Source: Escherichia phage vB_EcoM-Ro157lw
DNA: 64,000 nt
Sequence record: MH051335.1
Reading direction: 5' to 3' (one strand)
Shown here: positions 40,913 through 55,305 of the stretch, one piece after another
How positions within the stretch are numbered: position 1 is the first letter of the stretch
Layout of the letters: every line of letters begins with the position of its first letter
The notes under the pieces: generated by a model
Databases searched by the model: none
Seen by the model: the letters and a program-made list of their open reading frames with translations, nothing else
Told to the model about the DNA's origin: nothing
Program-made: the position numbers and the translations under genes

Positions 40913-41773
40913 TTAAAACTCTTCTGCGTCGGTCGGAGTTTCATTAACAGGGCCAGCGGCACCGCTTGCTTCTTCCTGCTTGCTGCGGTCAATGTTAACG
41001 TTGCCGCCAACTACATCGTTGTGGAATGCTTTGGCGACTTCATACAGACCTTTGTCCTGCACCAGACCTTCCAGCTCAAACTTCAGAACTGACCAGGTGT
41101 TGCCATCTTTAGACTGAGACGCAGTACCCATGCGAACGATGTTCATGAAGGTCGGCGGAGTTTTCAGGCCCTGCGGAGTCTGAACTTTCTTCTGCTGCAG
41201 AGCGGTCATCAGCATGCGAGACGGCTTGATCATGGAAGAAGTCAGAGACAGCATTGCGCTACCAAATTCACCAGTTTCTTCGTTCAACAGGATCACAAAG
41301 TGGTTACGTGTATCTGCGTAGTAAGGTGATTTCTTCTCGTGCACCTTGCCGTTTTCGTCTGGCACAAACACCTTACCGTTGATTTCAACAGCGCGGCCTG
41401 CTGCGACTTCTGCATCAACGTGCTCTTTGGTGAATTCACCTTTAAAGCCTTTATCGTCGGACTCGCGACCGCCCCAAAGGATGAAGGTGCGTTTGAATGC
41501 GCAAGGGATGATCTGCACACCTTTCTTGCCGTCATACAATTCACCAGTAACGGTGTTGTACAACATACCAGCTTTTGCGCCAGGAACGTGTTTTGGATCA
41601 TCTTCGTCGACCATCGGAGACATCTTTTGCAGTACGACGATAAAAGGAATGGCATAAGCGTCGGCATCGGCACCTTCAAAGCCAGCGCCAAAATCGGTCA
41701 TGTCGACAAAATCAGCCATAGCGGACATCTGGGTGTTTTTCACTGCAACTTCGGTAGTTTCTTTCTTAGACAT
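40913..41773 (-). CDS. hypothetical protein with acidic C-terminal tail ending in Phe (SSB-like feature)
   Basis: C-terminus ETPTDAEEF. Confidence 0.4.
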   Translation of the reverse strand: MSKKETTEVAVKNTQMSAMADFVDMTDFGAGFEGADADAYAIPFIVVLQKMSPMVDEDDPKHVPGAKAGMLYNTVTGELYDGKKGVQIIPCAFKRTFILWGGRESDDKGFKGEFTKEHVDAEVAAGRAVEINGKVFVPDENGKVHEKKSPYYADTRNHFVILLNEETGEFGSAMLSLTSSMIKPSRMLMTALQQKKVQTPQGLKTPPTFMNIVRMGTASQSKDGNTWSVLKFELEGLVQDKGLYEVAKAFHNDVVGGNVNIDRSKQEEASGAAGPVNETPTDAEEF

Positions 41774-47678: not shown

Positions 47679-48220
47679 TATTTACTCCAGATGTCATATA
47701 CGCCAATTTGTTGGCAGACTTTGTGCAGTAATATTACGTCGTCTAATGCACGGTGCTTCTGTTCATATTTTCCGAAATATAATTCATACAGCTCTTGAAG
47801 CTTAACTCTTCGGCCAAAAATAGGCAAGGTTTGCTCGACTGTACAAATGTTTATTTCTGGAAAATTAACATCACCAAGTGTAAGACCTTCGCGCTGTAAT
47901 GCATAATCAAGGATGTTCTTATCGAATGCATGGTTGTGCGCGATAGTGGCATCAGTCTTCTTGAAGATGTCTTTTAGTTGCGGAACGAAATGAATAAAGG
48001 GTGGATTGCACTCAAGGTCTTCATTGGTTAATCCGGTAATCTTTGTGATGATTTCTTCAATCACAATTTCAGGATTAATTATGAACTCGAACGTTTCAAG
48101 AATCTCTTTGCCGTCCGTCAACAGGCCTGCAAATTCAATAGGGCGCGGCTGCATCCCAAGCGGTGCTTTCGGGTGCACGGTTAATCCGGTTGTTTCGAAG
48201 TCATAAGGGAGAAATAACAC
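47678..48220 (-). CDS. DnaQ-like 3'-5' proofreading exonuclease
   Basis: Exo I YDFETTGL, Exo II AHNHAFD, Exo III HRALDD; GTG start with AGGAGG SD. Confidence 0.8.
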   Translation of the reverse strand: MLFLPYDFETTGLTVHPKAPLGMQPRPIEFAGLLTDGKEILETFEFIINPEIVIEEIITKITGLTNEDLECNPPFIHFVPQLKDIFKKTDATIAHNHAFDKNILDYALQREGLTLGDVNFPEINICTVEQTLPIFGRRVKLQELYELYFGKYEQKHRALDDVILLHKVCQQIGVYDIWSK

Positions 48221-48273
48221 ATTGGCCTCCTACAAAAGGCCGCCCATTAGGACGGCCACAGATTCAAGATTCG

Positions 48274-48825
48274 TTATGCAGTGTACGGAGTACCATCTTG
48301 ATTCAACCGCACGATGAACTTAAGGTCGACGCCGATGATTTCACGCGTATCAAAGATCACATAGTTGTAACGACGCTGACCAGCAATATTTGGGTTGGTG
48401 TGAGAGTCAGTTACAACTTCCTGCGCAACCTGAATGCCTTCTTCTTTAAAGAACTTGCGCCATTCAGCGAGTTCAGCGGCAGTCACGTGCATACCAAGAT
48501 GGCTAACCTGATTGTCGTGTGCATCAATATATTCGATGTTTTCGTTAATCCAGTTGCGACCTTTCGTGTAGTCAAGAATTTCAAGTTCAAGAGGCTTACC
48601 AGCGCCGCCATCGGTGCCGTTGCCAGCTTGATAGTTGAAGCGCAAGTCAGCTTCGTTGGTGCAATCGCCGCGCTGACCTTTAAAGTCATCAGCTTCAAAT
48701 ACGCGACCAGTAGCAACAACATGATCATGGAACCATTCTGTCAGGCCGATTTTAGCCAGAAAATCCTGTGCGCGCTGAGCATCTGGAATTGACAGGGCGA
48801 TTTGTTCAATTTTAAAGTGTGGCAT
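48274..48825 (-). CDS. VOC/glyoxalase-fold protein (tentative)
   Basis: N-terminal pattern KIEQIALSIPDAQRAQDFLAKIGL. Confidence 0.35.
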   Translation of the reverse strand: MPHFKIEQIALSIPDAQRAQDFLAKIGLTEWFHDHVVATGRVFEADDFKGQRGDCTNEADLRFNYQAGNGTDGGAGKPLELEILDYTKGRNWINENIEYIDAHDNQVSHLGMHVTAAELAEWRKFFKEEGIQVAQEVVTDSHTNPNIAGQRRYNYVIFDTREIIGVDLKFIVRLNQDGTPYTA

Positions 48826-48845
48826 TTTGTTTCCTTAATTAAATA

Positions 48846-49016
48846 TTATTGATTAATTACTGTGTTGCCTTCGATGGAATAAGTCTCAATGGAACCGACG
48901 CGCTCGTGGTTAATCTTTGCGTTTTCGATTCTTATTACTTCAAATCCAACGCCTTCTTGATCAATCTTCACTTCTGCCACGTCGCCAATCACTTCTACAA
49001 CAACTTTGATAGTCAT
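48846..49016 (-). CDS. small hypothetical protein (56 aa); below ORF-track size cutoff
   Basis: ATG 3 nt downstream of SDR stop; GGGAAA SD-like. Confidence 0.35.
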   Translation of the reverse strand: MTIKVVVEVIGDVAEVKIDQEGVGFEVIRIENAKINHERVGSIETYSIEGNTVINQ

Positions 49017-49019
49017 GAT

Positions 49020-49703
49020 TTATTTCCCAAATGGAATATCAGTACCAGACATAAAGCGCCATGCGCCCGTAATTAAGATATGGCGAATGAAGTCAGCAAT
49101 TACTTGCGGCTCAGTCTCCAATCCGTTCATCAATGCCTTTTTCTGGTATTCAGCGGCATACTCAGGAGTCCAGCCGCGAGTCGCGCAAACAGCATCTTCA
49201 ATCTGTTTGGACATGCCAGTACCACGTAGCTTGTTAGGACTAATAGAGAATACCGTGATCCCGTATTTAGGCGTAAGCTCGTGAGCCATCTGCTTGCTAA
49301 TCATAAGCGCAGCAGCCTTGGATGCATTATAACACAAGCTGGACGTCATAGGAATATGCGCAGCATTAGAAACGATATTGATCACAAAACCTTTGTTGTC
49401 GATAAGACTTTTCAGCGCGGCCTGAGTCGTGTTGACGAAAGAGAAGGCGTTGGTGTGCATAACGCGATTGAACTCTTCGTAGTTAACATCTTCGAACCAG
49501 TTGTTGGAGTTGACGCCAGCGCAGTTGATCAAGCCTTCTACGTCGTATTGAGAGAGAAGCTCTTTCATCTGTTTCGCGTTACGGATGTCATAGCCGTTCT
49601 CCAAATCAATACCGACAACTTCATGACCGTAAGCGCCAAGGGTGTCAAAAATGGATTTACCAAGACCGGAATTGCAGCCAGTTACAACAATTACTTTTTT
49701 CAT
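49020..49703 (-). CDS. short-chain dehydrogenase/reductase (SDR)
   Basis: TGxxxGxG (VTGCNSGLGKS), NCAG, YNASK catalytic motif. Confidence 0.7.
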   Translation of the reverse strand: MKKVIVVTGCNSGLGKSIFDTLGAYGHEVVGIDLENGYDIRNAKQMKELLSQYDVEGLINCAGVNSNNWFEDVNYEEFNRVMHTNAFSFVNTTQAALKSLIDNKGFVINIVSNAAHIPMTSSLCYNASKAAALMISKQMAHELTPKYGITVFSISPNKLRGTGMSKQIEDAVCATRGWTPEYAAEYQKKALMNGLETEPQVIADFIRHILITGAWRFMSGTDIPFGK

Positions 49704-49724
49704 TTATTTATCCTTTTTGGACTT

Positions 49725-49758
49725 CGTTTCGATGAGATAAATATAACTCATCGAAACG
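49725..49758 (-). promoter_or_regulatory. 12-bp perfect inverted repeat CGTTTCGATGAG / CTCATCGAAACG with 10-bp spacer in the SDR gene leader
   Basis: Direct reading; 13-mer TTCGTTTCGATGA also at 42666-42678. Confidence 0.5.
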
Positions 49759-49768
49759 CACAAGTAAA

Positions 49769-50641
49769 CTATTTATTGAAATTAATATTATGGGTGTTAA
49801 CAAGACGTTCACACATGGCGCTGTAAACACCATCATCGTGTATAGAGTCTTCGTGCTTCAGGCCGCTGATTGCGAAGCGTGTAAGCTTGACAATCTTAAG
49901 CTCGAACAGATGCCACATGTGGTAGTCTTCCGGCGTTTTCAACGTCACGCCATTAGGGAAAAGCACTTGCATAACCTGACCTACCATCACAGCGTTATCG
50001 CCATAGACAGCGTTGCGCTCACGGAAGGTTGCTGCCATTGCATCAAGAATATCGGCGGCAGTTGCCGGAGATTGTTCAACTTCCACAGCCTTAGTCTCTT
50101 CTTGCCCTGTTGCGCTTGGATCAATTGCTAATTGTTGCACCACTTCACCTGCCTTGCAAAGATTAAATGTAAAAGCGATTTTATTTTGAGCAACGGAATT
50201 ATAATACAATGCTTCATCTTGCATCCGCGCGAGTACGTCTTGTCGGTCGTCGAATACATTGATGATTCGATAATCGCCGTGCCGCAATGCGTGCGATAGC
50301 CATGCAGATTTCATAATAGTTGATGGACGTTTGTCGCCATAGTCTCTCATCTTGATTGTAAATTCATCAAAAGGAAAAACATTATCCAGACGTTCAAAAG
50401 TCACTTGTCTGTATTTTTCTGGCCTTGCAGTCCAATATTCAACCGCCTCACCGCGAAGAGATGCCGACTCTACTGCTGATGCAATGTGAGGATAGAACTG
50501 ATCATAACCAATACCGCTGTGATAGTCATCATAGTCTGACGACGGACCTGCCACCTTTATGCGGTCTAAGCGCCAACGGTCATCAAACAGCGTTCCGTCA
50601 AGGTCGAATACATTTAAGATTTCGCTGTTTTTAATGCTCAT
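49769..50641 (-). CDS. HAD-superfamily phosphatase-like protein with extra C-terminal domain
   Basis: Motif I VFDLDGTLFD and later DD motif. Confidence 0.55.
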   Translation of the reverse strand: MSIKNSEILNVFDLDGTLFDDRWRLDRIKVAGPSSDYDDYHSGIGYDQFYPHIASAVESASLRGEAVEYWTARPEKYRQVTFERLDNVFPFDEFTIKMRDYGDKRPSTIMKSAWLSHALRHGDYRIINVFDDRQDVLARMQDEALYYNSVAQNKIAFTFNLCKAGEVVQQLAIDPSATGQEETKAVEVEQSPATAADILDAMAATFRERNAVYGDNAVMVGQVMQVLFPNGVTLKTPEDYHMWHLFELKIVKLTRFAISGLKHEDSIHDDGVYSAMCERLVNTHNINFNK

Positions 50642-51468
50642 CCTTTTGATACTCCATCTTTAGCAACTGGATTGTTGGTGATTGGCATCGCACTCCAAAA
50701 CTGGATGCGCAACTCTTCTTGCTGTGCCGTGGTATCCATCCAATCACGATACCAAGGGCAATGGGCTTTGCCATGACGAGGAAACGCGCATTTACCCATA
50801 CCGATGCATTGCGGCTGTAATAATGGATTTGCCCACGGGTGCACCTTGAGGACTTCCGCAACCATTGCGCGGAATACTTCTTGATACTCGCCTTGAGTGC
50901 GCGTGCACAAGCGGTTTGACGCCATCTGCTGCAGCGTGCGCAAGTTGAACTTTGCCATGATATGCGTTTGCATATTAGAAGGCAACACGGCACGTGCATC
51001 TTGAATCTCTGCGCCAGCCGCGCGAAGCTCTTGATACAAAGCATCGATAGTCGCCATCGCATCATCCCACTTCTCTGCTAAGTATTGCTTTTGAAGTAAA
51101 GATTGGTGCTCTTCATCAGTCCCAAACGCTTCACATTGATCAATCAACTCTGGATTTTGGTGTGAGAATGCCTTCGGACGAATCGCATCAAATGCAGACG
51201 ACTCCTGAGCGCGGCTGGTACGTTCTTGATATGCGCCTGTGCGTGTGCGCACCATCTGATGGGTCATGTTCTTTGAAACATCGGTGATGTCAAAGATATA
51301 GTCCACAAAGTCAAAAGGCGACTTGATTGTATCAAGCATGTAGCGCCAGTGCTCTTGCTTCTCTGATTCCGTCATCTCAGAGACAGGCTTGCCAGTCATG
51401 CGCGTGTTCTTTGTTTCCAGCAAAAGGTCAAGTGCATCTTGGGTGTATCGAATTAATTTAACTTTCAT
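50638..51468 (-). CDS. ThyX-like flavin-dependent thymidylate synthase homolog (divergent RTR in place of RHR)
   Basis: VRTRTGAYQERTSR aligns to the ThyX RHRxxxxxxxS region. Confidence 0.5.
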   Translation of the reverse strand: MKVKLIRYTQDALDLLLETKNTRMTGKPVSEMTESEKQEHWRYMLDTIKSPFDFVDYIFDITDVSKNMTHQMVRTRTGAYQERTSRAQESSAFDAIRPKAFSHQNPELIDQCEAFGTDEEHQSLLQKQYLAEKWDDAMATIDALYQELRAAGAEIQDARAVLPSNMQTHIMAKFNLRTLQQMASNRLCTRTQGEYQEVFRAMVAEVLKVHPWANPLLQPQCIGMGKCAFPRHGKAHCPWYRDWMDTTAQQEELRIQFWSAMPITNNPVAKDGVSKG

Positions 51469-51481
51469 TTTAATTATCCTA

Positions 51482-51928
51482 TTAACGGTAGTTCACTAGT
51501 TGCTGATCACCAGAGAAGGTGCAATGATAAACAAATTGTGCATTATAAAGCAACTGAAAACTTTTCTTTGGTTCACTATTAGCACTCATCGATGTGAATA
51601 CTTCTGCACCGGAACGGTTTTCACCGATTAAGTTGACAAAGCCGCCAGTTGTGCGAGGTTGAACGAAAGTGAAACGTTGCATCCACGGAGTCCGGTTGAC
51701 ACCTTTTCCGGTGAATCCTTGAATCTGAATATTCAGACCTTCTTGCTCATTCACACCGATGTAAGTGGTAATCTTCGCACCAGTCGTTGCTGCGGTCTTA
51801 CCGTCCATCGCTTCGCAATCATAAACAGCGATTGAATCGGAAGTACGGATGGCAGCTTCAGTCGCTTCCATATACATGGTGCCGAGAATAGCAGTTGCGG
51901 CAAGCGCGATTCCAGTGATTCGTTTCAT
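51482..51928 (-). CDS. secreted protein (signal peptide, two Cys)
   Basis: N-terminus MKRITGIALAATAILG. Confidence 0.5.
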   Translation of the reverse strand: MKRITGIALAATAILGTMYMEATEAAIRTSDSIAVYDCEAMDGKTAATTGAKITTYIGVNEQEGLNIQIQGFTGKGVNRTPWMQRFTFVQPRTTGGFVNLIGENRSGAEVFTSMSANSEPKKSFQLLYNAQFVYHCTFSGDQQLVNYR

Positions 51929-51993
51929 TTTCGTTTCCTCTATGAGTTCTGCTTCAATGATTAAAGTATACGCCCATTGAAGCAGAAAGCAAA

Positions 51994-52989
51994 TTATTTA
52001 TTAGCAATATAAGCAAATTTTTGATAGTTATTTGCTTTGATGAGTTTTTCAACTTCAACAAGATCATGAGCGACGTCATCAAGCAAAATGTTTCGCCAGG
52101 TAGCAAATCGACCGACACTAAACACGTTCAAATCCATAGTCAGCTGCAGGAGTAAGGCGTGTCGCAAGTCTTTCGGAATGTCGACAATCTTTCCATATTT
52201 CTGGTCGACCTTTTCAACTTCTTCAAGAGCGATGTCACTCCATGAGAGGCCAAATGCCGTCAGCACCTCGTCGACTTCTGCGCGCAGCTTGATGTCACGG
52301 TAACGAGTGATGCCGCCAGCGGCTTCAACTGCAGCTTCACTTACGCTGACCAAAGGAATTGTTTCAATGATAAGCGTGTCACCAGTAATTGATGCGCGGT
52401 AAGTTCTGACGGAGTAGTCAGGGAAGTAAATTGTCTGATACAAATCACACTTACGTTTAATCTTAAAGCGGTAAACACGAATGTTTGCTTTATCAAATGA
52501 GAAATCAAGCTTTTGATCAATCCCAGCCAGCTTCATCATGACTGGCAGCGGCGACGTGTTGATGATTGGCGTCTCGCTATAGCCGCAAAGAGTATCAACC
52601 GGAGTATTAAAGAATATGCGGTCACCCAGTTTGTCGACAAGCTGATCATAAAAGTCATCAGGCGCAATATAACGCGTTGCAGTCTTAAGATTCATGATTG
52701 AACGGCTGCCAAACTGATTGGTGACCTTCATGGAATACATATTGGCAAGGTTGATTGGGCAATGGTCGTGGTAGTAGTTGCCGCGAAAATACACAGCCTT
52801 GTCAACTGTCACTGCCTTAAAAGGGATTCCGGTAATACGGCTTACTTCTTCGCCACGGAAGCGTAGCAGCGCCTTGTGCTGTTGCGCTCGCTCCCCTGCT
52901 TCGTACACAACAGAGTTCGGGAAGTGACACGCTGTGATAAGTCCTGCCAATCCGCCGCCGATAATCATTACAGGTTGTTTCATGTTCAT
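51994..52989 (-). CDS. FAD/NAD(P)-binding oxidoreductase (possibly UDP-galactopyranose-mutase-like)
   Basis: N-terminal GxGxxG MIIGGGLAGL; C-terminal GRFATW motif. Confidence 0.5.
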   Translation of the reverse strand: MNMKQPVMIIGGGLAGLITACHFPNSVVYEAGERAQQHKALLRFRGEEVSRITGIPFKAVTVDKAVYFRGNYYHDHCPINLANMYSMKVTNQFGSRSIMNLKTATRYIAPDDFYDQLVDKLGDRIFFNTPVDTLCGYSETPIINTSPLPVMMKLAGIDQKLDFSFDKANIRVYRFKIKRKCDLYQTIYFPDYSVRTYRASITGDTLIIETIPLVSVSEAAVEAAGGITRYRDIKLRAEVDEVLTAFGLSWSDIALEEVEKVDQKYGKIVDIPKDLRHALLLQLTMDLNVFSVGRFATWRNILLDDVAHDLVEVEKLIKANNYQKFAYIANK

Positions 52990-53121
52990 TTGTCCTTTGT
53001 GGGTGATATGAGAAGTATAATAGCTAAATTATTTTACAGCAACAAGTCATTTTATTTAGTACAGATGAAAAAAGACCCACAACAAGTGTGGGTCAATTAC
53101 CGCTGCATAACCGTCCTAAGG

Positions 53122-53967
53122 TTATTCCGCTTGATCACCGTCTTCGGCATCTTCGTTGGATTCAACATCGACAAACTCGATGTGGCCCATCTCTTCCAGC
53201 TTGCTCAGGTAGGAGCGAACGGAAGCGCCAAACAGTTGATCTTTAACTTTTTCGCCCAGCTCATCGATAGACTGCGCCACGCCAACTTCGCCTTCTTTGA
53301 TCGCCGCCAGAACGCGTCCACGGGTGGAATGCTCTTGCGGCTGGCTCAGGCCATTGCCAGTGTAGATGAAGTGGGTTGCTTTTGCGCGACGCTGACCGTT
53401 TGCCTTTTTAGCAGCCTTACGTTCTGCGATGGCTTTGCGACGTTCTTCAGCTTCTTTCTTACGCTGTTCTTTCTGCTTTTCTGCAGCTTCTTTAGCCGCA
53501 ATCTTAGCAGCTTCACGCTCTGCCTTGCGTTTCGCTTTAGCTTCTTCTTTGGCCTTCTCTTTTTCGGCCTTCGCTGCAGCACGGGCTTGATCACGCTCTG
53601 CTTTCTTAGCAGCAGCTTGTTCAGCTTTCAGGCGCTTGGCTTCTTCTTTGGCCTTTGCCTTTTCGATTTCTTTTGCTGCTTTAGCGGCTTCACGCTCTGC
53701 TTTCTTAGCAGCTGCTTTTTCTGCACGCTCTTTGGCTTTCTTCGCTGCTTCTTCAGCACGTTTCTGTGCTTTCTCATCAGCGGCCTGCTTGCGTTTCAGT
53801 GCAGCTTCTTCACGCTTGGCTTGTTTTTCCTGCTCACGCTTCTGGCGTTTTTCTTCGGCTTCTTTCTTTTTAGCCAGGCGTTTTTCTTCAGCCACGCGAC
53901 GACGTTCTGCTGCAGCTGCTTGTTTTTCTTCTTTAGATAATACTTTGATTGCTTCGGCCATATTCAC
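53122..53967 (-). CDS. Lys/Glu/Ala-rich charged-helix protein with C-terminal globular domain
   Basis: ~190 aa of KAE-rich low-complexity sequence; AAGGA SD; same strand as all neighbours. Confidence 0.6.
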   Translation of the reverse strand: MNMAEAIKVLSKEEKQAAAAERRRVAEEKRLAKKKEAEEKRQKREQEKQAKREEAALKRKQAADEKAQKRAEEAAKKAKERAEKAAAKKAEREAAKAAKEIEKAKAKEEAKRLKAEQAAAKKAERDQARAAAKAEKEKAKEEAKAKRKAEREAAKIAAKEAAEKQKEQRKKEAEERRKAIAERKAAKKANGQRRAKATHFIYTGNGLSQPQEHSTRGRVLAAIKEGEVGVAQSIDELGEKVKDQLFGASVRSYLSKLEEMGHIEFVDVESNEDAEDGDQAE

Positions 53968-54120
53968 AGTCCTTAAATAAATTAGTTTATTTTATATTCC
54001 CCGTTTGGGATAACTTAATTATGCCTTCAGTCGCCGCCAGTAGCAACTAAAAACTCTGGCGGCAATGCCACTTTAATTAAACTGATTTTCAGTTTTATTT
54101 TTCGTAAATTTACGTCAACA

Positions 54121-55305
54121 TTAACGCGCTTTCAAATCACGGTACACAGTCAGATTCTTCTTAGCGCGGGTAATAGCTGTATACATCATCTTGGCATACG
54201 GAACGCCGCGCAAGATTTCTTCCAGCACGCACACATTGTCCCACTCGCTGCCTTGAGATTTGTGCACCGTTATGACATAGCCATAGTCCATTCCTCCAAC
54301 AGCGCGTTGGGCCTCTTTGCGCACTTCCTGATCAGTAGAGAAGGAAAGAGGATTTATCTTAACCTTTATATCTTTGCCATCGGTAAGCGAGCGCAAATTT
54401 ACATACATTATTTCATTGGACTCATCTTCATCCCTTTCAAAGTCCGGTACTGGCTCATAACTAATAACAATCCCTTGCTCGCCATTACAGAATCCTGGAC
54501 CGTGTTGGTTGAATGTACAAATAACTTTCTCGCCGATTCCTGGCATTGGCGTTATACGTCCGCTCACTTGTCGCAATAATGAATTCCATTTATCTTTAGT
54601 GCTATTATATGAGCAAATAATTTGATCATCTTCGCCCATGAATTTCTTCAGTGCGGTAACGCGCGGCGATTCAGCCAACACCTTTACGTCATCGTATTCA
54701 CGCGGAGGAAGTCGGTTGCCCTGTCGCACGAAGAAGGAAGCGCGGATTATGTTGGACTCTTTTCCCTGCCGCATGATTTCGGTTAACAGTACGTCAACGG
54801 CATCTTCAGTAAAGTAGGCGGCGGCTTTTACCGGAGGGACTTGCCCAATGTCGCCTAATGCCAGCACAGGGATGCGGTGATCAAGAAGGCGCTCTGTGTC
54901 CCACTCGCCAACCATTGAAGCTTCATCAAGGACTACAAGATGCGGCTTTTCGTCCAGCTTTGACTTTCTCGAAAATATTGGCTCATTGTCGTCATTTACG
55001 CCGCGAACGTTATAGATGAACTGGTGAAGGGTCTTCGCGCCACGACACCCTTTCTGCTTCAATCGGCTGGCGGCCTTTCCGGTCGGCGCAATATAAATGG
55101 CACCGTACTCACCGACACAACGGCGCACAATCTCACGCGCAATAGAGGTTTTACCTGTTCCTGCATAGCCAGCGATGAAAAACACGCGCTTCGTCGTTTT
55201 ACCGTCCTGCAATCGCTTGTACCATGCAACGGCCTTTTCGATGGCATCAATCTGTTGCGCGTTAAACTGAATCGCTGGCTCATTATTAAATTCTGGAATG
55301 TTCAT
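54121..55305 (-). CDS. Dda/RecD-like SF1 DNA helicase
   Basis: Walker A GYAGTGKT, Walker B VVLDEASMV, VHKSQGSEWDNV. Confidence 0.75.
   Translation of the reverse strand: MNIPEFNNEPAIQFNAQQIDAIEKAVAWYKRLQDGKTTKRVFFIAGYAGTGKTSIAREIVRRCVGEYGAIYIAPTGKAASRLKQKGCRGAKTLHQFIYNVRGVNDDNEPIFSRKSKLDEKPHLVVLDEASMVGEWDTERLLDHRIPVLALGDIGQVPPVKAAAYFTEDAVDVLLTEIMRQGKESNIIRASFFVRQGNRLPPREYDDVKVLAESPRVTALKKFMGEDDQIICSYNSTKDKWNSLLRQVSGRITPMPGIGEKVICTFNQHGPGFCNGEQGIVISYEPVPDFERDEDESNEIMYVNLRSLTDGKDIKVKINPLSFSTDQEVRKEAQRAVGGMDYGYVITVHKSQGSEWDNVCVLEEILRGVPYAKMMYTAITRAKKNLTVYRDLKAR

What the first reader, a model, noticed from the sequence alone, without database searches (positions are those of the whole stretch)
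53122..53967. Lys/Glu/Ala-rich single-helix protein with a small C-terminal domain; long antisense ORF is an artifact
About 190 residues are almost entirely K, E, A, R and Q in short repeats (TolA-domain-II-like composition), followed by an ~80-aa domain that looks helix-turn-helix-like. The 354-aa plus-strand ORF 52876..53940 is the antisense shadow of this repeat (Phe/Leu/Cys-rich). Function is unknown; it could be a DNA-binding spacer protein or a structural ruler.
Basis: seen in the sequence. Interest (0 to 1): 0.45.

Follow-up and report, generated by a model that had tools for sequence, protein, structure and literature searches.

The report
Charged-rod winged-helix phage protein
A real, probably very highly expressed gene of an E. 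coli Wifcevirus phage encodes a predicted 26-nm single charged helix ending in a small winged-helix domain; it most likely coats or organises phage DNA, its function has never been tested, and the long ORF on the opposite strand is an artefact.

Summary
The window is a Wifcevirus, a 68-kb E. coli myovirus. The minus-strand gene 53122..53961 (ATG at 53961, 279 aa, 31.1 kDa) is under strong purifying selection: 76 of 84 variable sites in 7 genomes fall at codon position 3. Published mass spectrometry detected its product in two Wifceviruses. The 354-aa plus-strand ORF is truncated in 5 of 7 relatives and is a shadow.

Three findings are new:
- In every family member tested, Lys/Arg recur with an 11/3-residue period (z 6.7 to 23). 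This gives a continuous cationic ridge opposite an acidic face. E. coli TolA lacks this pattern.
- The neutral winged-helix domain carries seven invariant basic positions.
- Codon optimisation ranks the gene third of 73 ORFs, between the major capsid protein and the tail sheath.

The family is small (27 clusters) and always lies directly after the Dda-like helicase in PB1-like phages.

Best reading (about 0.4): an abundant, non-sequence-specific DNA-coating or architectural protein of the replication module. It is not TolA. Virion membership is unproven. Interest is moderate.

The parts
53122..53961 (-). Coding sequence of the 279-aa, 31.1-kDa protein (pI 9.7), including the stop codon at 53122-53124. 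A GTG at 53967 is an unlikely alternative start.
   Evidence: ORF list and sequence. Identical 840-nt CDS annotated in relatives. 76 of 84 variable sites at codon position 3. phrog_4765, E=7e-84. Product detected by MS. MW and pI.
53404..53934 (-). Residues 10-186: one continuous predicted alpha-helix of about 26.5 nm. Composition is A/K/E/R/Q-rich, and this segment has net charge +26. Lys/Arg sit at hendecad positions 1, 4, 8 and 11, forming a cationic ridge. Asp/Glu lie about 180 degrees away.
   Evidence: AF2 full-length model, pLDDT 92-96 for residues 20-130 and 73-85 for 130-180. K/R period 3.68, z=+15.4; D/E z=+7.5 against shuffles. Internal DNA repeats spaced 33 and 99 nt.
53164..53403 (-). 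Residues 187-266: basic arm (G-x-R191-R192-x-K194-A-T-H197) followed by a winged-helix domain: beta 197-200, H 213-222, beta 229-231, H 232-243, H 248-257 (candidate recognition helix VRSYLSKLEE), beta 261-264.
53125..53163 (-). Residues 267-279: disordered acidic tail (net charge -6 here; -1 to -18 in relatives).
   Evidence: pLDDT below 50. Charge table across the family.
53970..53974 (-). Ribosome-binding site AAGGA, 8 nt before the ATG.
   Evidence: Read from the sequence. RBS annotated at the same place in phage Mansfield.
54018..54046 (-). Sigma-70-like promoter candidate (TTGCTA, 17 nt, CATAAT) inside a nearly invariant intergenic region.
   Evidence: Consensus scan, 9 of 12 matches. 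The intergenic region 53962-54120 has 3 variable sites in 159, against 10% in the gene. This is a prediction only.
54033..54063 (-). Conserved hairpin GCCGCCAG ... CTGGCGGC between the helicase gene and this gene. It has no U-run and overlaps the putative -35 hexamer.
   Evidence: Sequence. RNA fold of the intergenic region, z=-2.7. No Rfam match.
53064..53094 (-). Intrinsic terminator (GACCCACA ... TGTGGGTC followed by T6) directly after the stop codon, which would make the gene a separate transcription unit.
   Evidence: Scan. Terminators annotated at the same place in Mansfield, WFC, LBL3, MTx and XcP1.
52876..53940 (+). 354-aa Phe/Leu/Ser/Cys-rich antisense ORF. It is not a gene; it is the complement of the GAA/AAA/GCN-rich sense strand.
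   Evidence: Truncated in 5 of 7 relatives. Variable sites fall at its codon position 1. It overlaps the terminator and the start of the next gene. Fop 0.45.

Best explanation
The gene encodes an abundant, non-catalytic nucleic-acid-binding protein of the phage replication module.

Proposed mechanism:
- The C-terminal winged-helix domain and its basic RRxKATH arm dock the protein on DNA.
- The 26-nm, probably monomeric helix presents a continuous Lys/Arg ridge (about 43 of its 66 basic residues). This ridge lies along, and neutralises, tens of base pairs of DNA, or bridges neighbouring duplexes.
- The opposite acidic face and the acidic tail limit aggregation, or fold back on the ridge until DNA displaces them.

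Functionally this would be a phage histone-like or linker-histone-like DNA-organising protein acting on replicating phage DNA.

Shown here or in published work: the gene is real, expressed and strongly codon-optimised; the family and its gene neighbourhood are conserved; the charge periodicity is conserved. Predicted, not measured: the helix-plus-winged-helix fold. Inferred: DNA binding, lack of sequence specificity, monomeric state and the role of the tail.
For: - **Conserved basic surface.** Seven invariant or always-basic positions (R191, R192, K/R194, R214, K/R216, R249, K254), plus invariant T196, H197, S206, Q209 and S212, sit in an otherwise neutral 78-aa domain across 30 sequences of about 40-60% identity. 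They lie in the N-terminal arm, at the N-cap of helix 1 and on helix 3, the places winged-helix proteins use to contact DNA (general knowledge of the fold).
- **Charge layout.** The helix is net positive in every member scored (+4 to +26), the domain core is neutral and the tail is acidic.
- **Periodicity.** K/R periodicity of 3.68-3.70 residues has z=+6.7 to +23 in all 7 genera tested. D/E lie about 180 degrees out of phase. The pattern is absent from E. coli TolA domain II.
- **Abundance.** Composition-corrected codon optimisation gives z=5.6, third of 73 ORFs: below the major capsid protein (7.2) and above the tail sheath (5.1). The MS score ranks 6th of 33 proteins in vB_Eco4M-7, even though only about 30% of the protein yields tryptic peptides of 7 or more residues.
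- **Context.** The gene has its own promoter-like site and terminator, and an almost invariant upstream region. It always lies directly after the Dda-like helicase in the replication cluster, even in members only 40% identical.
Against: - No binding experiment exists.
- The helix is 20% Glu, unlike true H1 tails or protamines. In PB1 the whole protein is net negative.
- A nearly straight ridge does not follow the DNA helix.
- The conserved position next to the helicase may only reflect shared ancestry of one phage lineage.
- No sequence match to any DNA-binding family passed threshold in Pfam or NCBIfam. The only hint is the Csa3 wHTH model in PADLOC at E=0.011.
Confidence: 0.4

Rival explanations
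1. Replisome or helicase adaptor. The winged-helix domain and acidic tail bind a phage or host protein, for example the adjacent Dda-like helicase, the polymerase or the SSB-like protein. The charged helix is only a rigid spacer or tether.
Against: The conserved surface residues are mostly Arg, Lys, Ser, Thr and Gln rather than hydrophobic. Codon optimisation at capsid-protein level argues for stoichiometric amounts, whereas the helicase next door is ordinary (Fop 0.46). The conserved cationic ridge would be unexplained for a mere spacer. The synteny may simply be inherited.
Confidence: 0.2
2. Virion-internal protein packaged with the genome and injected with it. The thin rod plus a small domain could pass the roughly 4-nm tail tube. 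It would condense the DNA in the head or shield incoming DNA.
For: The protein was detected in CsCl-gradient-purified vB_Eco4M-7 with a score above the portal, capsid and sheath proteins, and weakly in ECML-117. The LBL3 ortholog ORF66 is the only gene outside the morphogenesis block labelled 'putative structural protein'. The E217 tail-tube lumen is about 40 A (PMC10329688).
Against: The same MS lists contain clearly non-structural proteins: helicase, glyoxalase-like protein, reductase, endolysin and the 31.2-kDa Pam3_Gp34-like protein. The three strongly detected replication-module proteins, this one included, rank 2nd, 3rd and 5th of 73 for codon optimisation, so carry-over of abundant proteins explains the data. 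Abundance relative to capsid protein differs about 40-fold between the two preparations. The homolog is absent from the MS list of DNA-free ghost particles of Pbunavirus SCUT-S1. The gene lies in the replication cluster. The LBL3 label carries a low-complexity note, 'cell wall associated hydrolase'.
Confidence: 0.15
3. Sequence-specific regulator or origin-binding protein. The winged helix would recognise a defined site, such as an operator or origin, to control transcription or start replication.
Against: The recognition helix is identical from Vibrio to Burkholderia phages, which is unusual for site-specific regulators of diverged genomes. No iterons or repeated sites occur in the flanking intergenic regions. 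Capsid-level codon optimisation does not fit a regulator. A 26-nm charged helix has no role in this model.
Confidence: 0.1
4. Envelope-spanning TolA-like protein, or a capsid scaffold or length ruler.
For: GenBank labels call it 'TolA protein' or 'putative structural protein'. Its length, helicity and C-terminal helix-turn-helix loosely recall the P22 scaffolding protein (knowledge, not tested).
Against: The sequence has no hydrophobic segment or signal peptide, and Pfam finds no TolA domain. In the Pa193 study, candidate scaffolding ORFs were sought among genes next to the capsid, neck and tail genes, and the internal capsid density was assigned to gp24 (PMC11456595). The E217 study built 19 gene products and its text does not mention gp68. 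The tape-measure protein is a different gene.
Confidence: 0.03

Closest known systems
phrog_4765, the orthologs in PB1-like phages (PB1 ORF66/gp69, 14-1 ORF66, LBL3 gp64, E217 gp68, Pa193 gp84, KPP12 ORF65, MTx gp078, BcepF1.072, XcP1_051)
   Same: True homologs with the same three-part architecture. All lie directly after the Dda-like helicase and have their own terminator.
   Different: Helix length varies (family proteins range from 116 to 380 aa) and the N-terminal leader is not conserved. None has an assigned or tested function.
TolA domain II (E. coli Tol-Pal system)
   Same: A Lys/Glu/Ala-rich long helical region. This is the source of the 'TolA protein' label.
   Different: There is no N-terminal membrane anchor and no TolA C-terminal domain. 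E. coli TolA lacks the 11/3 periodicity of K/R (z=-0.2 against +15.4). The similarity is compositional, not homologous.
Linker histone H1 and bacterial H1-like proteins (Chlamydia Hc1, Pseudomonas AlgP, PhaF tail)
   Same: A winged-helix globular domain joined to a long Lys/Ala-rich segment; abundant; presumed to neutralise DNA charge.
   Different: The domain order is reversed. The basic segment is a pre-formed helix containing 20% Glu, and an acidic tail is present. There is no Pfam Linker_histone match. Foldseek similarity to the yeast H1 globular domain is not significant (E=2.2).
ER/K single alpha-helix (SAH) domains (myosin VI and X, caldesmon) and Baldwin-type Ala/Glu/Lys helical peptides
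   Same: Very high charge density, almost no hydrophobic residues, and a predicted uninterrupted helix with no partner strand.
   Different: Here the charges are segregated onto opposite faces with a hendecad period rather than interleaved for i to i+4 Glu-Lys bridges. E to K at i+4 is not enriched, whereas K to E at i+4 is. The Ala content is 30%.
Abundant phage histone-like dsDNA-binding proteins (phi29 p6, SPO1 TF1)
   Same: Small, very abundant proteins from early or replication modules that coat the phage genome. This is an analogy of proposed role only.
   Different: The folds are unrelated (p6 is an unrelated fold; TF1 is HU-like). No experimental link exists.
Sulfolobus Sso10a and Bacillus RacA (winged helix plus long helical rod)
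   Same: A winged-helix DNA-binding head attached to an extended alpha-helical rod, used for DNA bridging or stiffening (recalled from the literature, not tested here).
   Different: Those rods are hydrophobic-seam coiled-coil dimers. This helix has no seam. No sequence similarity exists.
Hendecad (11-residue) repeat helices: group 3 LEA proteins, apolipoproteins, alpha-synuclein
   Same: An 11/3 periodicity that produces straight stripes of like residues along the helix, in a K/E/A-rich composition.
   Different: Those helices have an apolar stripe for lipid or dimer contacts. Here the dominant stripe is Lys/Arg and hydrophobic residues are only 4%.

Membership tests
TolA (Tol-Pal system) | N-terminal transmembrane anchor (domain I) | tested here: not met
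   The N-terminus is MAEAIKVLSKEEK. Only 11 hydrophobic residues occur in the first 195 and there is no hydrophobic stretch anywhere.
TolA (Tol-Pal system) | C-terminal TolA domain III | tested here: not met
   No Pfam or NCBIfam match at E<=0.1 for the whole protein or the C-terminal 94 aa. The C-terminal fold is a winged helix.
TolA (Tol-Pal system) | Long Lys/Glu/Ala-rich helical domain II | tested here: inconclusive
   The composition is similar, but the strong 3.67-residue K/R periodicity of this family is absent from E. coli TolA.
Winged helix-turn-helix fold | Three-helix bundle with a beta-sheet wing | tested here: met
Winged helix-turn-helix fold | Binds nucleic acid through helix 3 and flanking basic residues | not testable with these tools
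   Supported only indirectly by invariant R191, R192, K/R194, R214, K/R216, R249 and K254.
Linker histone H1/H5 (Pfam PF00538) | Sequence match to the globular-domain profile | tested here: not met
   No Pfam hit. Foldseek to yeast Hho1p GII: E=2.2, probability 0.11.
Single alpha-helix (SAH / ER/K) domain | Long helix rich in E/K/R without a hydrophobic seam | tested here: met
   Predicted helix 10-186. 58% charged residues, 4% hydrophobic. No heptad periodicity of apolar residues.
Single alpha-helix (SAH / ER/K) domain | Dense i to i+4 Glu-to-Lys/Arg salt-bridge pattern | tested here: inconclusive
   E to K at i+4: 14 observed against 14.3+/-2.8 expected. K to E at i+4: 23 against 14.5+/-2.8. 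E to K at i+3: 20. E to K at i+5: 23.
Single alpha-helix (SAH / ER/K) domain | Monomeric and helical in solution | not testable with these tools
   Needs circular dichroism, analytical ultracentrifugation or SAXS.
phrog_4765 (PB1-like phage protein of unknown function) | Full-length profile match | tested here: met
   E=6.6e-84, residues 1-279 against profile positions 14-271 of 294.
Virion structural protein | Reproducible stoichiometric presence in purified particles | tested here: inconclusive
   From the literature only. Strong in vB_Eco4M-7 and marginal in ECML-117, alongside non-structural proteins. Not listed for SCUT-S1 ghost particles. gp68 is not mentioned in the E217 cryo-EM paper.

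The most novel reading that the evidence does not exclude
The family could be a previously unrecognised kind of viral chromatin protein. In this reading it is a pre-formed 26-nm rod with a hendecad-phased cationic ridge, anchored by a winged helix. It lines the phage genome during replication and possibly inside the capsid, and it may travel with the DNA through the tail. Coating would shield the DNA from host nucleases and defence systems, or organise a replication compartment. This could contribute to the restriction resistance reported for Wifceviruses and, more speculatively, to their very fast infection cycle.
Probability: 0.12. Interest if true: 0.7.

Novelty: new variant of a known kind. 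Interest (0 to 1): 0.4.

Why it matters
The gene is conserved in Pbunavirus phages such as PB1, 14-1, E217 and Pa193. These are among the Pseudomonas phages most used in therapy, and their virions have been solved by cryo-EM, yet this predicted top-expression gene has no assigned function.

If it is a DNA-coating protein, it would add a new architecture to the short list of phage histone-like proteins: a charge-striped single helix plus a winged helix. It would also give a handle on how these phages organise or protect replicating DNA.

The conserved 11/3 cationic ridge is a simple, testable design principle for a rigid polyanion-binding rod.

The result also corrects two misleading database labels, 'TolA protein' and 'putative structural protein'.

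Tried and rejected
- **TolA homology: rejected.** No Pfam or NCBIfam hit, no membrane anchor, and different charge periodicity.
- **The 'putative structural protein' label.** That is most simply a low-complexity BLAST label. The KPP12 paper identified only ORF22, 23 and 30 experimentally. Ceyssens et al. 2009 could not be read.
- **Supplementary tables not held.** The Pa193 and FoX6 virion MS tables and the 14-1 TSS/TTS tables were unavailable. Virion presence in Pbunavirus and Carpasinavirus, and the transcription class, therefore remain unchecked.
- **Sequence search of the PDB** with the family profile found nothing significant (best E=0.04, CobT, spurious).
- **Foldseek against PDB** gave no hit with E<0.25. 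**Foldseek against BFVD** returned only the protein's own family. The afdb50 library was unavailable.
- **Word-indexed protein search** returned few members, 3 and then 13. The exhaustive search showed that the family really is small: 27 clusters.
- **Iterons or operators** around the gene: none found.
- **Rfam** on the conserved upstream region: no match.
- **Coiled-coil dimer through an Ala stripe:** not supported. Ala periodicity is inconsistent between members.
- **SSB role: rejected.** The fold is not an OB fold, and another highly expressed acidic protein with a ...DAEEF end (ORF 40913-41773) is a better, though unproven, candidate.

Full report
**Where the window comes from.** A megablast of 52900-54200 finds 28 phage records at 94.6-99.2% identity, all Wifcevirus. 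These are E. coli/Shigella myoviruses of about 68 kb; the best match is ECO71P1. In those records the gene is called 'hypothetical protein' or 'TolA protein'. It lies between a Dda/RecD-like helicase (window 54121-55305) and a UDP-galactopyranose-mutase-like flavoprotein (51994-52989). The surrounding cluster holds the replication and nucleotide-metabolism genes: a UvsW-like helicase, Pol III alpha and epsilon, ThyX, a phosphatase and a divergently transcribed primase.

**The observation.** The minus-strand ORF 53122..53967 is there. An ATG at 53961 sits 8 nt after AAGGA and is the start used in all annotated relatives, giving 279 aa, 31.1 kDa and pI 9.7. Residues 10-195 are 94% A/K/E/R/Q with net charge +29. 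The last 84 residues have normal composition and net charge -11.

Seven Wifcevirus genomes differ at 84 sites within the gene. Of these, 76 are at codon position 3 of the minus frame. The protein keeps 279 residues with at most 7 substitutions.

The plus-strand ORF 52876..53940 is rich in Phe, Leu, Ser and Cys. It is cut to 238-276 codons in five of the seven genomes, takes the variation at its first codon position, has unremarkable codon usage, and runs across the terminator and the start of the next gene. It is a shadow of the GAA/AAA/GCN-rich sense strand.

LC-MS/MS of CsCl-purified vB_Eco4M-7 and ECML-117 found the 31.1-kDa 'TolA protein' (vBEco4M7_83: 7 peptides, 25.8% coverage; PI34_gp81: 2 peptides). 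Both are orthologs of this gene (PMC7048862).

**Anatomy.** AlphaFold2, run on a 13-sequence alignment, predicts one uninterrupted helix from residue 10 to 186, about 26.5 nm long. Its pLDDT is 92-96 up to residue 130 and 73-85 beyond. After the helix come a loop, strand 197-200, helix 213-222, strand 229-231, helices 232-243 and 248-257, strand 261-264 and a disordered acidic tail. A second model of the C-terminal 94 residues agrees, with core pLDDT about 90.

Foldseek finds nothing significant in the PDB, and only the protein's own family among viral models. Pfam, NCBIfam and a PDB sequence search give nothing. PADLOC gives a marginal match to the Csa3 wHTH. The fold is therefore clear, but membership in a specific winged-helix family is not.

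**The family.** A tblastn with the C-terminal domain finds it in 356 phage records: Pbunavirus (PB1-like) and the genera of Serratia MTx, Pantoea PA1, Burkholderia BcepF1, Xanthomonas XcP1 and a Vibrio phage. An exhaustive HMMER search of 1.84 billion representatives finds only 27 clusters. In the proteins with complete N-termini, the domain follows a K/E/A-rich segment that ranges from roughly 30 to more than 200 residues, and it is often followed by an acidic tail. In every genome context examined where the neighbouring genes are called, including two metagenomic contigs only 40% identical in the domain, the gene follows a Dda-like helicase directly. Where annotated, it has its own terminator.

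**New features of the helix.** The helical regions cannot be aligned between genera, yet they share one precise property. Lys/Arg recur with a period of 3.68-3.70 residues (11/3). The z-scores against composition-preserving shuffles are +15.4 (window), +14.6 (PB1), +11.7 (MTx), +9.8 (XcP1), +23.2 (PA1), +14.0 (JSF39) and +6.7 (BcepF1). Asp/Glu have the same period about 180 degrees out of phase.

Written in rows of 11, 43 of the 66 basic residues of the window protein fall in positions 1, 4, 8 and 11. The helix therefore carries a nearly straight cationic ridge along its whole length, with an acidic/Ala face opposite. Internal DNA repeats are spaced 33 and 99 nt apart, as expected if the helix grew by duplication of 11- and 33-residue units.

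E. coli TolA domain II has similar composition but shows no such periodicity (z=-0.2). The pattern is thus a family trait, not a by-product of composition. The helix is net positive in all members scored (+4 to +26), the domain core is neutral (-2 to +3) and the tail is acidic (-1 to -18). Hydrophobic residues make up only 4% and show no heptad pattern, so a classical coiled coil is excluded.

**New features of the domain.** In 30 sequences the following are invariant or nearly so: R191, R192, K/R194, A195, T196, H197, G204, S206, P208, Q209, S212, R214, G215, K/R216, G227, I232, L243, G245, R249, L252, K254, L255, E256, E257 and H260. Seven conserved basic positions sit in an otherwise neutral 78-residue domain. 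They lie in the N-terminal arm, at the N-cap of helix 1 and on helix 3. This is the pattern expected of a nucleic-acid-binding surface rather than a protein-docking one. That is an inference from general knowledge of the fold.

**Abundance.** The gene uses E. coli-preferred codons far more than its neighbours: Fop is 0.72, against a window median of 0.49, 0.46 for the helicase and 0.51 for the flavoprotein. All 25 Arg codons are CGT or CGC, and 9 of 10 Leu codons are CTG. After correcting for amino-acid composition it ranks third of 73 ORFs (z=5.6). It sits behind the major capsid protein (7.2) and a Pam3_Gp34-like protein (6.7), and ahead of the tail sheath (5.1).

In the vB_Eco4M-7 MS table its score is sixth of 33, above the portal, capsid and sheath proteins. 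This is despite only about 30% of the sequence lying in tryptic peptides of 7 or more residues. The 159-nt upstream region has 3 variable sites, against 10% in the gene. It holds a sigma-70-like site and a hairpin. The protein is made in large amounts, which suits a stoichiometric role rather than a regulatory one.

**Is it a virion protein?** The MS samples were CsCl-banded. However, the same lists include a helicase, a glyoxalase-like protein, a reductase, the endolysin and the 31.2-kDa Pam3_Gp34-like protein. The three strongly detected replication-module proteins, this one included, rank 2nd, 3rd and 5th of 73 for codon optimisation. The signal relative to capsid protein differs about 40-fold between the two phages. 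The homolog is not in the MS list for DNA-free ghost particles of Pbunavirus SCUT-S1, and gp68 is not mentioned in the text of the E217 cryo-EM paper. The 'putative structural protein' label goes back to LBL3 ORF66 with a low-complexity note. Carry-over of an abundant, possibly DNA-bound protein is the simpler explanation. Packaging is not excluded.

**Most likely mechanism (confidence about 0.4).** The protein is an abundant DNA-associated architectural protein of the replication module. The winged helix and its basic arm anchor it. The cationic ridge of a rigid, probably monomeric helix neutralises or bridges DNA over tens of base pairs. The acidic face and tail prevent uncontrolled condensation, or act as an intramolecular competitor. 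The closest functional analogies are linker histone H1 and bacterial H1-like proteins, and abundant phage DNA-coating proteins such as phi29 p6. Structurally it also recalls winged-helix-plus-rod proteins such as Sso10a. None of these is a homolog.

**Rivals:**
- a helicase or replisome adaptor (0.2);
- a packaged or injected internal protein (0.15);
- a site-specific regulator or origin binder (0.1);
- a TolA-like, scaffold or ruler role (0.03).

About 0.1 is left for something not considered.

**Verdict.** The gene belongs to a known but uncharacterised phage family (phrog_4765). Its architecture, a hendecad charge-striped single helix plus a winged helix plus an acidic tail, was not found described in the papers searched here and matches no curated family. 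I rate it a new variant of a known kind (phage DNA-architectural proteins), of moderate interest (0.4), with a clear experimental path.

Noticed in passing
window 40913-41773 (-): A 286-aa acidic protein (31.2 kDa, pI 5.1; Pfam Pam3_Gp34-like, phrog_2402, unknown function). It has the second-highest codon optimisation in the window (z=6.7) and a C-terminus ending ...ETPTDAEEF, reminiscent of SSB tails. A 31.2-kDa protein of matching mass was detected in both virion MS lists (vB_Eco4M-7_70 and PI34_gp68). It may be the phage's abundant ssDNA-binding or recombination protein.
   Followed up: partly
window 48274-48825 (-): A glyoxalase/bleomycin-resistance-fold protein (20.8 kDa) that is strongly codon-optimised (z=3.4). 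It was detected with 8 peptides and 50% coverage in CsCl-purified vB_Eco4M-7. This is unexpected for an enzyme-like protein in a replication cluster.
   Followed up: partly
window about 48000-53000 (-): A gene run of ThyX, HAD phosphatase, short-chain dehydrogenase, glyoxalase-fold protein and a UDP-galactopyranose-mutase-like flavoprotein (51994-52989, phrog_4828), next to the replication genes. This might be a nucleotide or DNA-modification pathway. The BASEL study reports considerable restriction resistance of Wifceviruses (PMC11990801).
   Followed up: no
window 53962-54120: The intergenic region upstream of the gene is almost invariant among 7 Wifceviruses (3 variable sites in 159, against about 10% in the flanking genes). 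It contains an 8-bp GC hairpin (54033-54063) overlapping a putative -35 hexamer. There is no Rfam match. It could be an attenuator or an operator.
   Followed up: partly
window 51482-51928 (-): A 148-aa ORF inside the nucleotide-metabolism cluster starts with a signal-peptide-like segment (MKRITGIALAATAILGTMYMEA...). It has no Pfam or PHROG match and may be a secreted or envelope protein.
   Followed up: no
family members P0015, P0018, P0019, P0021, P0023, P0024 and BcepF1 (P0005): Several distant homologs begin with His-rich leaders before the charged helix (for example MSHTHHHD, MSHGHHNHG, MHKHHNHDHN, MNQHAHEKHEHHD). The Wifcevirus protein lacks this. It may be a metal-binding or regulatory N-terminus.
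   Followed up: no
L019 3161-5359: In one metagenomic relative the Dda-like helicase upstream of the homolog is 732 aa and carries a faint LAGLIDADG hit. This suggests an intein or homing-endonuclease insertion.
   Followed up: no
window 53346-53980, both strands: The low-complexity coding sequence creates several further spurious ORFs in other frames (82, 49, 53 and 114 aa) that a naive gene caller could report.
   Followed up: yes
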